64,000 nt of DNA from Podarcis vaucheri (lineage: Eukaryota): assembly GCA_965113315.1 (NCBI GenBank), contig OZ220363.1; one strand, written 5' to 3'. Position numbers: made by a program. How positions within the stretch are numbered: the first letter of the stretch is position 1; each line of letters begins with the position of its first letter. Shown here piece after piece: positions 30,701-33,700 of the stretch.

Positions 30701-33700
30701 GTAACACAGGTGCTTAAACAAGTGTTTATTTCTTCTCCATCAAGAGAAGATCATATGAGTTGGGCCTGCACTACATTTTGTTTCATGAGCGTGGTGGAGG
30801 GATATGTAAGTAACTGTTGTATCAAAGGCGTTCAGCAAGCTGAAAGTTCAGACTGAAATAATCGCAAATGTGTCAGTTTATTTTGAAAACATGAACTGTT
30901 GATACCACTCTCCATGTATAAGCATTTGCATAATATAGAGACTATAGTGAAATGTTCTGGAAGCCAAGCTAATTGAACAGTTACAAAAATGAGTCCTCTT
31001 TTCCAAGCAGGCATTTCAAAAATCACAAAATACGGTATGTGTGTGAATGACAGTTCTATATTATGTAAGAACAAATATTAGGCACCCAAGCAACAACTTG
31101 TTATTAAAATTTCTATCCCGCACTTCCTCAGTAAGGAGCCCAGGGCAGCAAACTTAATACATCTTAATACTATGAAAAATCAAATTCAAACATATTCAAA
31201 CATTAAAAACAATAACAAGATCCAACAACATTTTGAAACGTCTAAAAGCATTTTAAAACAATCACATTCACAGCTTGTAGTTATAAGGCTGTCCGGAACA
31301 GTACCTTTCAGCTGTCAAATGCCTGGGTGAACAGGAATGTTTTTAAGTTCCTCCTGAACATCAATAATGAGAGAGATAGATGCATCTCACGGGGGGGGGG
31401 GGCATTCCACAAACAAGAAACCCCCAAGGTTACTTCATAGGTTAAGGCTAACTGGGCAGCAGCTCGCAGCAGCACCAACAGTACCCCTCCTGCTGATCAT
31501 AGGGCCTGTGGGAATGGAGTCAGAGAGTCAGATGGCTGCCTCCCCTGTGCTATTTTGTTACCTGCACAGGTGAGGTCACGTCCACCTCTGGTCACATGTA
31601 GAGGAACCCAGGAGGAAACAGGAAGTTCCGACTGGCTGGTCCAGACATCCCCTTTTTATGTCCACTCTAGGAATGTTGTATTTGATTGCTCTGTTTCACA
31701 CCCCACAGGGTCCTGTATGGTTGTTACTTGAGGAGGTGTTCTTTTGGGTACTGTTCAGAGTTTTGTGCTAGTACTAGCACCTTGCATTGAGCCTAGTAGC
31801 TCTGACAGCCTGAGCACTGCTTTCAGGACCGGTGACACATGGTCCCATCCAACCTAGCAGCCATTCTGCACTAGCTGCAGCCTCAGATGATCTTCAAGGG
31901 CAGCCCCATGTATAGTGCATTACTGTAGTTCAGGCAGGAGGTCACCAGAGCATGGACAACTGAGGTCAGGCTATGCAGTGCTGGAACAGCTAAGCAGAGC
32001 ATAAGCACTCATAGCCATGGAAAACTCTTGAGAGGTTAGCAATGGCAGACTATGGAAACCATGCTCCAGATTCATGGATGACAGCTCCAAACCATGTCAT
32101 AAAGATGTTAAATAGTGCAGGAGACAGCATAGCCCCTTTCAGCACCCCACAGAACAAAAGCCGTGAGGTTGAGCAATAGTCTCTGCCAATAGGGGTGAAA
32201 CCACCATAATATGGTGCCTCCAACTCATGCTTCTGAGGCATTCCAGAAGGACACCATGGTCAATAGTGTCAAAAGCCATTGAGAGATCAAGCAAAATGAA
32301 TAGGGGCACAGTCCCTATAGGACAATCAAGACTGTTTCAGTGCAAAAACAGGGCCTGAAACAAGACTGAAATGGGCATATATAACCTGCTTCCTCCAGGC
32401 ATATCTGCAGCTGGTCAACTACTAACCTCCTGATCACCTTGCCCAGAAAGGAAATGGCTCCATCTTTATTACAGCAGTAAATAGTAATGTATAAATTGCA
32501 TACTCTGTGAATACATCCATTTCAGTGGGTCTTCTGGTAAGGGGCGCACGGCACAGGCAGTTAGTGACTGTGCCATGTGCCAGCCTTCCTTCAAGCCTGG
32601 GAAATTGTGGTTGTCCTATCAGCAGACTTTGGGTCTGCAGCTGCTATTGTTGAATGCCAAGCCAGCTTTGAATAACACCTCTCTCAACCATGATTTGATT
32701 GTGGATGAGGAGGCTGATCTGGTCTGTTACAGATCAGGATGGGTAAGCAGGATGGGGTTGGTCTGTACCAGATCCAGGAGCTCTTGGAGGAAACTGATTT
32801 TCTAGATCTATTTCAATCAGTGTTTAGGCCTGGTTTTCGCACAGAAACTGCTTTGGCCGCGTTGTATGATGGAAGCGAGGAATCACTGTTGGAAAAGAGA
32901 CAGGGGAAATGTGTCCTTGTCAATTCTCAACCTCTCAGAGGCTTTTGATACCATTGGACAGGATATCCTTCTGGGGCAACTGTGCAAGCTAGGAGTGGGT
33001 GGCACCGCTTTGAGGTGGTTCTGGTCTTACTTGGATGGACTTTTCCACAGGGTGATGCTTGGGGGCTGCTCATTGGCCCTGTGGAGCCTCAGGGTACAAT
33101 TTTATCTCCAATGCTGTTTAACATCTACACAAAACCTCTGAGTGGGGTTATCCAGCCTTTTGCAGTGCATTATCAGCAATATGCTGATGACACATAGCTC
33201 TACCTCTCCTTTATGGTGTGGCAGATTGGACCATTGTTTTGTCTCGGTAATGGACTGGATGAGAACCAATAAACTGAAGCTCAATCCAGATAAGACTGAA
33301 ACTCTCTTAGTGGGCGAAATAAAAAAATTCCTTCCAGTAGCACCTTAAAGACCAACTAAGTTAGTTCTTGGTATGAGCTTTCGTGTGCATGCACACTTCT
33401 TCAGATACCACTTATCTGAAGATAAGATACTTATCTGAAGAAGTGTGCATGCACACAAAAGCTCATACCAAGAACTAACTTAGTTGGTCTTTAAGGTGCT
33501 ACTGGAAGGAATTTTTTTATTTTGACTATGGCAGACCAACACGGCTACCTATCTGTAACTGGAATCTTAGTGGGCGGTTTGCTAAACCAGATGGCTGTGA
33601 GGTTGCTTGCTCTTCATGGGGTTACACACTCTCTGAAGGAGCGGGTATGTAGCTTGGGGATACTTCCAGATCTTTTGCTGTCACTTGAGGCTAAGGTGGC

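What the first reader, a model, noticed from the sequence alone, without database searches (positions are those of the whole stretch)
33305..33576. TSD-flanked palindromic mini-retroelement with two opposed hammerhead motifs, nested in an L2
Seen: a 248-bp insert (33317-33564) bounded by a 12-bp TSD (TCTTAGTGGGCG) that splits an L2 ORF right after LNPDKTETLLVG. It has near-perfect arms of about 90 bp (33317-33407 and 33432-33522). The minus-strand hammerhead (33371-33408) is intact. The plus-strand one (33431-33468) has GAAA changed to AAAA at a CpG, which should inactivate it. The spacer holds a duplicated TTATCTGAAGA, suggesting template switching at the ribozyme core, and a one-sided tail (33522-33564) follows. 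Established: Penelope-like insertions often show an inverted partial pLTR at one end. Inference: the inversion breakpoint sits at the hammerhead, and any transcript would fold into a long dsRNA that masks the ribozyme and could be an ADAR or Dicer substrate.
Basis: partly seen in the sequence, partly recalled or inferred. Interest (0 to 1): 0.75.

Follow-up and report, generated by a model that had tools for sequence, protein, structure and literature searches.

The report
Truncated Penelope-like insertion with inverted arm
A 248-base hairpin-shaped insert in a decayed lizard LINE copy is a very short Penelope-like retroelement insertion of a well-described, ordinary kind, carrying the small hammerhead motif typical of these elements.

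Summary
A 248-bp insert (33317-33564) lies between two perfect 12-bp target-site duplications. It has two 91-nt inverted arms (90 of 91 complementary), a 13-nt duplication at the junction and a 42-nt one-sided tail. It splits a LINE reverse-transcriptase ORF remnant after LNPDKTETLLVG.

The minus-strand arm carries a complete minimal type-I hammerhead of the kind described in Penelope-like elements (PLEs). The plus-strand copy has G12 changed to A at a CpG and keeps only 3 bp of helix I.

The window holds two more copies of the family. One is a solo tail-less arm (4905-4999). The other is a second TSD-flanked palindromic insert (59191-59406) with a different inner junction.

Hammerhead, 5' truncation, adjacent inverted copy, a 30-40-bp tail at one end and TSDs of variable length together form the published PLE insertion signature. 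The arm ends fit the two reverse-transcription start sites and the priming from both strands shown in vitro for an Anolis PLE.

This is ordinary, not a new element type. The dsRNA, ADAR and Dicer ideas remain untested, and no genome-wide census was possible.

The parts
33305..33316 (.). Left copy of the 12-bp target-site duplication TCTTAGTGGGCG
   Evidence: family D5, 12 of 12 identical to 33565-33576
33317..33412 (-). Inverted, tail-less arm (its sense is on the minus strand). It runs from the T-rich tract (outer end at 33317) to the 5' edge of the hammerhead.
   Evidence: 91-nt arm, 90 of 91 complementary to 33432-33522; nhmmer E=3.2e-33
33369..33410 (-). Complete minimal type-I hammerhead: helix I 6 bp, CUGAAGA, one extra A, helix II GUGUG/CACAC with G10.1-C11.1, GAA, palindromic AGCU, C17. 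The predicted cut lies between 33375 and 33374.
   Evidence: descriptor hit; 0 of 200 shuffles gave any hit; the MFE fold forms helices I and II, -11.7 kcal/mol
33408..33431 (.). Junction between the arms. It holds the first copy (33410-33422) of the 13-nt direct duplication ACTTATCTGAAGA; the second copy is 33429-33441.
   Evidence: family D4, 13 of 13; also a small inverted pair, 33398-33407 with 33413-33422
33432..33522 (+). Direct arm, with its sense on the plus strand
   Evidence: nhmmer E=8.6e-33
33432..33470 (+). Hammerhead copy with G12 changed to A (base 33457) and only 3 bp of helix I (UAU/AUA)
   Evidence: found only with the relaxed descriptor; only helix II forms, -5.6 kcal/mol
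33523..33564 (+). One-sided 42-nt tail (AC-rich, ...CAGACCAACACGGCTACC...), present only on the direct arm
   Evidence: alignment: the same tail occurs on the tailed arm of the second insert (59191-59228 region) and is absent from 3 of 3 other arms
33565..33576 (.). Right copy of the 12-bp target-site duplication
32718..34167 (+). Host: a decayed LINE ORF2 (reverse transcriptase) remnant interrupted by the insert
   Evidence: RVT_1 26.2 bits, below the 29.6 cut-off; left flank aligns to residues 750-779 and right flank to 790-820 of a 1009-aa Podarcis LINE ORF2
59181..59416 (-). Second palindromic insert of the same family. TSD TTTGTAAAGA lies at 59181-59190 and 59407-59416. The tailed arm is 59191-59321 (minus sense) and the tail-less inverted arm is 59322-59406 (plus sense).
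   Evidence: (arms 84 nt, 89% complementary, 14 nt apart; TSD 10 of 10)
4905..4999 (+). Solo tail-less copy of the arm with an intact hammerhead (4907-4944). It has no inverted partner.
   Evidence: (97.8% over 92 nt)
47678..47890 (+). Paralogous LINE copy that runs through the same ORF position without an insert; it serves as a paralogous 'empty site'
   Evidence...RLNPDKTEVLFLG, then 27 nt (9 codons), then FLVLNGVTVPLKDQV..., the same 9-residue spacing as in the host once one TSD copy is discounted

Best explanation
The insert is a dead-on-arrival, extremely 5'-truncated insertion of a Penelope-like element (PLE), or of a short non-autonomous RNA mobilised by one. It contains only the last ~95-135 nt of the retrotransposed unit: the hammerhead, about 90 nt downstream of it, and the tail.

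Proposed mechanism (inferred):
1. The PLE endonuclease cut both strands of the LINE target 12 bp apart.
2. The bottom-strand 3'-OH primed reverse transcription at the distal RNA start site, the end of the tail. This gave the direct arm plus tail.
3. The top-strand 3'-OH primed a second cDNA at the proximal start site, the end of the T-rich tract. This gave the tail-less inverted arm.
4. Both cDNAs stopped at or near the 5' edge of the hammerhead and were joined there. A slip or template jump at the join left the 13-nt duplication.
5. Gap repair produced the TSD.

The hammerhead is passenger sequence here. Both copies were probably intact at insertion, and one later lost G12 by CpG decay. G12 is the catalytic general base (established hammerhead knowledge, recalled). 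Any read-through transcript is predicted to fold into a ~91-bp hairpin that buries the ribozyme.

Shown: the anatomy, family membership within the window, the TSDs and the motif. Inferred: the order of events, priming from both strands, and the absence of function.
For: Family and independent origin of the palindromes:
- Three loci with five arms of one family occur in 64 kb (BLAST; profile search: 5 hits at E<=2e-17, next hit E=0.96).
- Two of the three loci are TSD-flanked palindromes with different inner junctions and different TSD lengths, 12 and 10 bp. The palindrome therefore arose anew at each insertion rather than being copied from a palindromic master.
- In the second insert both arms share the same expanded T-rich tract (...TTTTGTTTTGTTTCAA). 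The first insert lacks it, so the two arms of one insert came from one source variant.

Outer ends fall in two classes:
- 3 of 3 tail-less arms end within about 4 nt of the end of the T-tract.
- 2 of 2 tailed arms end 36-42 nt further on.

Published properties of PLE insertions:
- PMC8557442 (passages) describes high 5' truncation, an inverted 5'-truncated copy adjacent, a 30-40-bp tail often at one end only, a hammerhead in the pLTR, and TSDs of variable length.
[quoted passage not shown] It starts reverse transcription at two adjacent internal RNA sites, and the stretch between them is the 'tail'. The distal start lies 111-118 nt after the start of hammerhead stem II. Here, by my count, the tail ends 122 nt after the start of stem II.

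Hammerhead features listed in PMC4209133 (main text parts 1-2) are all present in the minus-strand copy: helix I of 4-5 bp, a long helix II, an unpaired base between positions 9 and 10.1, G10.1-C11.1, and palindromic 15.2-16.2. The same paper notes dual min-hammerheads ~100-700 bp apart on opposite strands in Schistosoma, and similar motifs in turtle and snakes.

The host LINE is colinear across the site.
Against: - No PLE reverse transcriptase or GIY-YIG endonuclease ORF was found in the window. Of 105 ORFs of >=85 aa scanned against Pfam, none matched GIY-YIG and the only RVT_1 hit lies in the host LINE. The autonomous partner is therefore not shown.
- No curated PLE consensus could be compared. 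The PAc GenBank supplement is unreadable here.
- All three sense frames from the hammerhead to the tail hit stop codons within about 20 codons (my reading). In the Anolis PAc element, by contrast, the ORF starts at stem II. This family is therefore not PAc itself and may be non-autonomous.
- Neither TSD shows the 5'-ATT target motif reported for PAc. The first TSD is not AT-rich.
- The Rfam hammerhead models give no match.
- With n=2 palindromes, priming from both strands cannot be separated from snap-back self-priming on junction evidence alone.
- An assembly artefact cannot be excluded without reads.
Confidence: 0.8

Rival explanations
1. Snap-back origin. A single cDNA primed at the tail end reached the hammerhead region, folded back on itself and self-primed second-strand synthesis. 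This produced the inverted arm from one RNA and one priming event.
For: The two arms overlap completely (91 of 91 positions) and the two arms of one insert share source-specific variants, as self-copying would give. The loops are short, 24 and 14 nt. Helix II is a perfect 14-nt palindrome that could favour fold-back (family D2).
Against: Self-copying should continue through the tail and give two tails, or else stop at arbitrary points. Instead, the inverted arms of both inserts stop within about 4 nt of the position where the solo, non-palindromic copy also ends (3 of 3). That argues for a discrete second start site. The inverted arm at 33408-33412 also carries 2-5 bases that complete helix I (GG, then U) and are absent from the direct arm, so it cannot be a pure copy of it.
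Confidence: 0.12
2. A MITE-like DNA transposon with long terminal inverted repeats.
For: The insert is small, has long inverted repeats and is flanked by a TSD.
Against: The inverted repeat is not terminal on the tail side, where 42 nt lie outside it. TSD lengths differ between copies, 12 versus 10 bp. Inner junctions differ between copies. A single-arm copy exists. The arms carry a strand-specific ribozyme motif typical of a retroelement.
Confidence: 0.02
3. LINE-type twin priming of a SINE-like RNA by the LINE machinery (Ostertag and Kazazian model, recalled), not by a PLE.
For: The layout is an inversion plus a direct segment flanked by a TSD, in a genome rich in LINEs.
Against: In twin priming the inverted segment comes from RNA upstream of the direct segment, not from the same 91 nt. 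There is no poly(A) or LINE-like 3' end. The tail and hammerhead module is PLE-specific (PMC8557442, PMC11167929).
Confidence: 0.03
4. Assembly artefact: a collapsed or chimeric palindrome.
For: PMC8557442 (passage) warns that complex PLE insertions often cause problems in shotgun assemblies.
Against: The site has perfect TSDs. The arms are not identical (1 mismatch here; 89% in the second insert). The junction is structured. A second, independent, older example has its own TSD. The host ORF is colinear across the site.
Confidence: 0.03

Closest known systems
Penelope-like element insertions (Penelope/Poseidon, Neptune clades) as described by Arkhipova and colleagues (PMC8557442) and the Anolis Poseidon element PAc (PMC11167929)
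   Same: Shared features are strong 5' truncation, an inverted 5'-truncated copy abutting the direct copy, a 30-40-bp tail on one side only, and TSDs of variable length. The hammerhead lies about 90-120 nt upstream of the 3' end of the inserted unit. The two classes of 3' end match the two adjacent RT start sites.
   Different: No RT/GIY-YIG ORF is at hand. The stretch between the hammerhead and the tail is non-coding here, whereas in PAc the ORF begins at stem II. The TSDs do not show the ATT motif. The insert is at the extreme short end, with only ~95-135 nt per arm.
Minimal hammerhead ribozymes of metazoan PLEs (Cervera and de la Pena 2014, PMC4209133)
   Same: It is type I, with helix I of 4-6 bp, an unpaired base after A9, G10.1-C11.1 and a long helix II. 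There is no real helix III, only a palindromic AGCU that could pair between two molecules. Opposed pairs of such motifs a few hundred bases apart were noted in that paper.
   Different: Helix II here is 5 bp plus a 4-nt loop (or a 14-nt palindrome), rather than the 7-8 bp reported for Schistosoma. Activity was not tested. The sequence family was not found in print (0 papers for four exact strings).
Animal non-LTR retrozymes (PMC7229834, listing only; bioRxiv 10.64898/2026.07.22.740005, passages)
   Same: These are short non-coding units carrying a type-I hammerhead and tied to PLE machinery. Reptile families average 176 bp.
   Different: Retrozymes are head-to-tail tandem arrays that give circular RNAs. 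Here no tandem copy exists at any of the 3 loci, and the two copies in the insert are inverted.
Rearranged Penelope copies with long inverted repeats that yield siRNAs in transformed Drosophila melanogaster (PMC3681739, passages)
   Same: PLE insertions form inverted repeats that can give dsRNA.
   Different: That work concerns flies, long repeats and measured small RNAs. Here there is only a predicted 91-bp hairpin in a lizard, with no expression data.

Membership tests
Penelope-like element insertion | Hammerhead motif within the terminal repeat (pLTR) region | tested here: met
   intact min-hammerhead at 33369-33410 (-) and 4907-4944 (+); 0 of 200 shuffles gave any hit
Penelope-like element insertion | 30-40-bp tail present at one end only | tested here: met
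   42-nt tail at 33523-33564 and about 36 nt on the tailed arm of the second insert; absent from 3 of 3 other arms
Penelope-like element insertion | Inverted 5'-truncated copy adjacent to the direct copy | tested here: met
   found at 2 of 3 loci of the family in the window
Penelope-like element insertion | Target-site duplication of variable length | tested here: met
   12 bp and 10 bp, both perfect
Penelope-like element insertion | Parent element encoding a telomerase-like RT plus a GIY-YIG endonuclease | tested here: inconclusive
   none among 105 ORFs of >=85 aa in the window.
Penelope-like element insertion | Sequence similarity to a curated PLE consensus (Repbase/Dfam) | not testable with these tools
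   the PAc GenBank file cannot be read; no repeat library is available
Minimal PLE hammerhead (Cervera and de la Pena 2014) | Core boxes CUGANGA and GAAA, with H17 not G | tested here: met
   Met for the minus-strand copy and the solo copy; not met for the plus-strand copy (AAAA, base 33457).
Minimal PLE hammerhead (Cervera and de la Pena 2014) | Unpaired base between positions 9 and 10.1, G10.1-C11.1, palindromic 15.2-16.2, helix I of 4-5 bp | tested here: met
   extra A; helix II 5 bp closed by G-C; AGCU; helix I 6 bp (4 bp in the solo copy). In one search the MFE fold forms helices I and II.
Minimal PLE hammerhead (Cervera and de la Pena 2014) | Self-cleavage (as a dimer or protein-assisted) | not testable with these tools
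   Needs an in vitro assay. The published min-hammerheads cleave poorly in vitro (PMC4209133), and the PAc hammerhead needs its protein (PMC11167929).
Rfam hammerhead families | Match to a hammerhead covariance model | tested here: not met
   0 matches at gathering score in 64 kb; 27 matches at E<=10 in 33250-33650, none a hammerhead. My inference is that these models expect a real helix III, which min-hammerheads lack.
microRNA precursor families (MIR8562, MIR1222, mir-581 and others) | Score at or above the family gathering threshold | tested here: not met
   69.5 versus 211 bits, 65.2 versus 90, 44.5 versus 100. These are generic long-hairpin matches on both strands.
MITE / DNA transposon | Inverted repeats at both termini and a fixed TSD length | tested here: not met
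   the 42-nt tail lies outside the repeat; TSDs are 12 and 10 bp; a solo arm exists
Non-LTR retrozyme | Head-to-tail tandem repeats, each with a hammerhead | tested here: not met
   no direct tandem copy at any of the 3 loci
L2 LINE (host of the insert) | LINE ORF2 with apurinic-type endonuclease plus RT; assignment to the L2 clade | tested here: inconclusive
RT remnant colinear with a 1009-aa Podarcis ORF2 carrying Exo_endo_phos and RVT_1.

The most novel reading that the evidence does not exclude
The palindromic mini-insertions may be natural records of PLE integration in vivo.

Their outer ends show both target strands being extended from the two RT start sites so far seen only in vitro in Anolis. 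Their inner ends may mark the true 5' ends of the template RNAs.
- Three of five arms end within 6 nt of each other at the 5' edge of the hammerhead, which would suggest a defined short template RNA that begins with the ribozyme.
- One arm (starting at 59322) begins within 1 nt of the predicted self-cleavage site. That would be a genomic footprint of hammerhead cleavage in vivo, which RNA-seq in Anolis failed to show (PMC11167929).

If a census confirmed a peak of arm starts at the cleavage site, it would give the PLE hammerhead a demonstrated role in making templates.
Probability: 0.15. Interest if true: 0.6.

Novelty: new member of a known kind. Interest (0 to 1): 0.27.

Why it matters
On its own it matters little. 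It is one more truncated PLE insertion inside a dead LINE, lying between two convergent genes.

It has modest value as an independent genomic example from a lacertid-like lizard. It matches the unusual in vitro behaviour reported for an Anolis PLE: two internal RT start sites, both strands extended, and a tail.

Such very short palindromic insertions are compact and easy to count genome-wide. They could be used to read off PLE start sites, template 5' ends and any use of hammerhead-cleaved RNA.

They are also a predictable source of misassembly and of false miRNA-like hairpin calls.

Tried and rejected
- Rfam at gathering score over the whole window gave nothing. At E<=10 around the insert it gave only sub-threshold hairpin matches to miRNA families and no hammerhead. 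I rejected the miRNA reading.
- The Pfam scan of 105 ORFs found no PLE protein in the window.
- The protein-atlas look-up of the paralogous LINE ORF returned only unnamed eukaryotic clusters and was not used.
- Supplement of PMC11167929: the spreadsheet is a list of read-archive runs only, and the GenBank and PDF files cannot be read. Direct comparison with PAc was therefore impossible.
- Supplement of PMC4209133 could not be searched. Its reptile hammerhead figures may bear on whether this exact family is already shown.
- bioRxiv supplements are closed.
- An exact-string literature search for the hammerhead sequence found 0 papers.
- RNAcofold of two hammerhead copies paired the palindromic helix II between molecules rather than the AGCU helix III. 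It neither supports nor refutes the dimer model.
- I did not build the joined pre-insertion sequence. The two flanks were translated and compared separately.
- Not possible with the collections on hand: a genome-wide census, orthologous empty sites in related lizards, RNA-seq or small-RNA checks, and long reads.
- The window is not taken for human. Its LINE ORF is 94-97% identical to lacertid lizard proteins, and min-hammerhead families were not found in mammals (PMC4209133).
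Full report
**Observation**

The finding is accurate.
- The repeat finder gives inverted arms 33317-33407 and 33432-33522, each 91 nt, with 90 of 91 positions complementary and 24 nt between them.
- A perfect 12-bp direct repeat, TCTTAGTGGGCG, lies at 33305-33316 and 33565-33576.
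- A perfect 13-nt direct duplication, ACTTATCTGAAGA, lies at 33410-33422 and 33429-33441.
- The insert is therefore 33317-33564 (248 bp), and 33523-33564 (42 nt) is a tail with no partner on the left.
- As RNA, either strand folds into a hairpin with a roughly 91-bp stem: -164.0 and -175.3 kcal/mol, z = -28.0 and -25.2, with 0 of 200 shuffles folding as well.

**Host**

- Frame 33142-33348 reads ...MDWMRTNKLKLNPDKTETLLVG and then enters the insert.
- The reading resumes in the frame expected after removing 260 bases, at 33564: ILVGGLLNQMAVRLLALHGVTHSLKERVCSLGILPDLLLSLEAKVA.
- Pfam sees only weak RVT_1 signal on the left pieces: 26.2 bits against a 29.6 cut-off, and 14.3 bits.
- The copy is decayed, with stops and frame changes upstream.
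- A paralogous LINE copy at 47678-47890 runs through the same position with the same 9-residue spacing.
- A protein search with that paralog (47645-48106) found 541 proteins at E<=0.001 among 1740 candidates. The best named ones come from Podarcis muralis (96-97% identity) and Zootoca vivipara (94%). One of them, P0005, is a 1009-aa ORF2 with Exo_endo_phos and RVT_1 domains.
- Against P0005, left-flank residues 29-58 align to 750-779 (53% identity, E=2e-9). Right-flank residues 15-45 align to 790-820 (55%, E=9e-7).
- Without gaps, this places the duplicated LVG at 777-779 and the first new residue at 780. The insert therefore splits a LINE ORF2 cleanly.
- I compared the flanks separately and did not build a joined pre-insertion sequence.
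- 'L2' as a clade label was not tested.
- The window is from a lacertid-like lizard and is not taken for human.

**The hammerhead**

Read on the minus strand, 33410 down to 33369 is UGGUAU CUGAAGA A GUGUGCAUGCACAC GAA AGCU C|AUACCA. Its parts are:
- helix I of 6 bp (UGGUAU/AUACCA);
- the CUGANGA box;
- one unpaired A;
- helix II closed by G10.1-C11.1;
- G12 A13 A14;
- a palindromic AGCU in place of helix III;
- C17, followed by the cleavage site.

These are exactly the traits listed for the minimal hammerheads of metazoan PLEs by Cervera and de la Pena (PMC4209133, main text parts 1-2 read). That paper lists helix I of 4-5 bp, a long helix II, a base between positions 9 and 10.1, a conserved G10.1-C11.1, and palindromic 15.2-16.2 with presumed action as dimers.

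A descriptor I wrote from those traits found 2 intact motifs in the window, both strands searched: this one and 4907-4944 on the plus strand. It found none in any of 200 dinucleotide shuffles. The MFE fold of the 42-mer forms helices I and II.

The plus-strand copy (33432-33470) has A at 33457 where G12 should be. The partner base 33382 is the C of a CG, so a CpG transition after insertion is the simple explanation. This copy also keeps only UAU/AUA of helix I; one search finds it only with the relaxed descriptor, and it forms only helix II.

G12 is the general base of the hammerhead (established knowledge, recalled), so this copy should be inactive.

The Rfam hammerhead models do not match at any threshold tried. 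I attribute this to the missing helix III, but that is an inference.

**Other copies**

BLAST of the 134-nt unit and a profile search built from the arms find five arms at three loci. The five hits have E<=2e-17, and the next best hit has E=0.96.
- Locus A (4905-4999, plus strand) is a single arm with an intact hammerhead, no tail and no inverted partner.
- Locus C (59191-59406) is a second palindromic insert with its own perfect 10-bp TSD, TTTGTAAAGA, at 59181-59190 and 59407-59416. Its arms are 84 nt long, 89% complementary and 14 nt apart. It lies in the opposite orientation, so the tail is on the left.

In the alignment the tail occurs only on one arm of each palindrome...GGCAGACCAACAC(G/A)GCTACCTA(T/C)CTGTAA....

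The three tail-less arms all end within about 4 nt of the end of the T-rich tract. The two tailed arms end 36 and 42 nt further on.

The two arms of locus C share an expanded T-rich tract that locus B lacks, so each palindrome was made from one source variant.

The inner junctions differ. Counting from the cleavage site (my count):
- locus B arms end at about -33 (direct arm) and -34 to -38 (inverted arm), the 5' edge of the hammerhead;
- locus C arms end at -13 (direct arm, inside helix II) and at +1 (inverted arm, within 1 nt of the cleavage site).

**What it is**

Each feature matches the published description of PLE insertions. In Craig et al. (PMC8557442, passages only):
- insertions are highly 5'-truncated;
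- a 30- to 40-bp tail is often present at only one end;
- hammerheads lie in the pLTRs;
- TSD length is variable.

Frangieh et al. (PMC11167929, main text parts 1-2 read) reported the following for the Anolis Poseidon element PAc:
- it starts reverse transcription at two adjacent internal RNA sites, and the tail is the stretch between them;
- the distal site lies 111-118 nt after the start of stem II;
- it does not need hammerhead cleavage in vitro.

The simplest account is therefore that both nicked target strands primed cDNA synthesis on RNA of the same family, one from the distal site and one from the proximal site. The two cDNAs then met and were joined near the hammerhead. The 13-nt duplication is consistent with a slip or template jump at that join.

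**What does not fit neatly**

- No PLE ORF is in the window (105 ORFs of >=85 aa, none with GIY-YIG).
- The hammerhead-to-tail stretch is closed in all three sense frames, unlike PAc. The family is therefore a different PLE lineage or a non-autonomous passenger.
- The TSDs lack the ATT motif reported for PAc.
- Three of the five arms end within 6 nt of each other at the 5' edge of the hammerhead. This suggests a defined 5' end of the template, such as a transcription start or a strong stop, rather than random truncation. I cannot tell which.

**Rivals**

- A MITE is excluded by the non-terminal repeat, the unequal TSDs, the differing junctions and the solo arm.
- Classical LINE twin priming is unlikely because the inverted and direct parts cover the same 91 nt and there is no poly(A).
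- Snap-back self-priming remains possible (about 0.1). It explains poorly why the inverted arms stop where the solo copy stops, and why the inverted arm of locus B carries helix-I bases that the direct arm lacks.
- An assembly artefact is unlikely, given the TSDs, the non-identical arms and a second, older example. Reads are needed to be sure.

**Function**

Nothing suggests a function.
- The insert lies between EML-like exons on the plus strand (last seen at 27328-27702) and Nab2-type zinc-finger exons on the minus strand (from 40007).
- A read-through transcript would bury the ribozyme in the hairpin; this is a prediction.
- The miRNA-family matches in Rfam are generic hairpin matches far below threshold.
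- siRNAs from inverted Penelope copies have been reported in transformed flies (PMC3681739, passages only). The Dicer idea therefore has precedent but was not tested here.

**Novelty**

- The kind is known. This lizard family was not found in print by exact-string search (0 papers).
- I could not consult repeat libraries, the unreadable supplements of PMC4209133 and PMC11167929, or bioRxiv supplements.
- Interest is low.
- The one lead worth a census is whether arm starts pile up at the hammerhead cleavage site, as the single case at 59322 hints.

Noticed in passing
window 59181-59416: A second TSD-flanked palindromic insert of the same family, older (arms 89% complementary). Its tail-less inverted arm starts at 59322, within 1 nt of the predicted hammerhead cleavage site. 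This may be a footprint of a self-cleaved template RNA, or it may be chance (n=1).
   Followed up: partly
window 4870-5015: The solo tail-less copy has a TATA-like CTATATAG about 25-30 nt upstream of its first base shared with the other arms. It also has a weak 6-nt flank repeat, AGTGTA, at 4903-4908 and 5009-5014. This could be chance, or a remnant of a parent pLTR promoter.
   Followed up: no
window 33305-33316 and 59181-59190: Read in the sense of the tailed arm, both TSDs begin with TCTT (TCTTAGTGGGCG and TCTTTACAAA). This could reflect a target preference or bases shared with the element's end; n=2.
   Followed up: no
window 31883-32521 (-) and 32718-34167 (+): Two LINE reverse-transcriptase remnants lie head to head. 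The minus-strand ORF pieces (…GAMLSPALFNIFM…, …LNYSNALYMGLPLK…) sit directly left of the plus-strand host copy.
   Followed up: no
window 2664-27702 (+) and 40007-43264 (-): Exons of an EML-like protein with several beta-propellers lie on the plus strand (Beta-prop_EML and Beta-prop_EML_2 hits). Exons with Nab2-type CCCH zinc fingers lie on the minus strand. The two genes are convergent, and the insert lies between them.
   Followed up: partly
window 47645-48106: An open 154-aa LINE ORF2 piece is 96-97% identical to Podarcis muralis proteins and 94% identical to a Zootoca vivipara protein. This points to a young LINE family and a lacertid-like source genome.
   Followed up: partly
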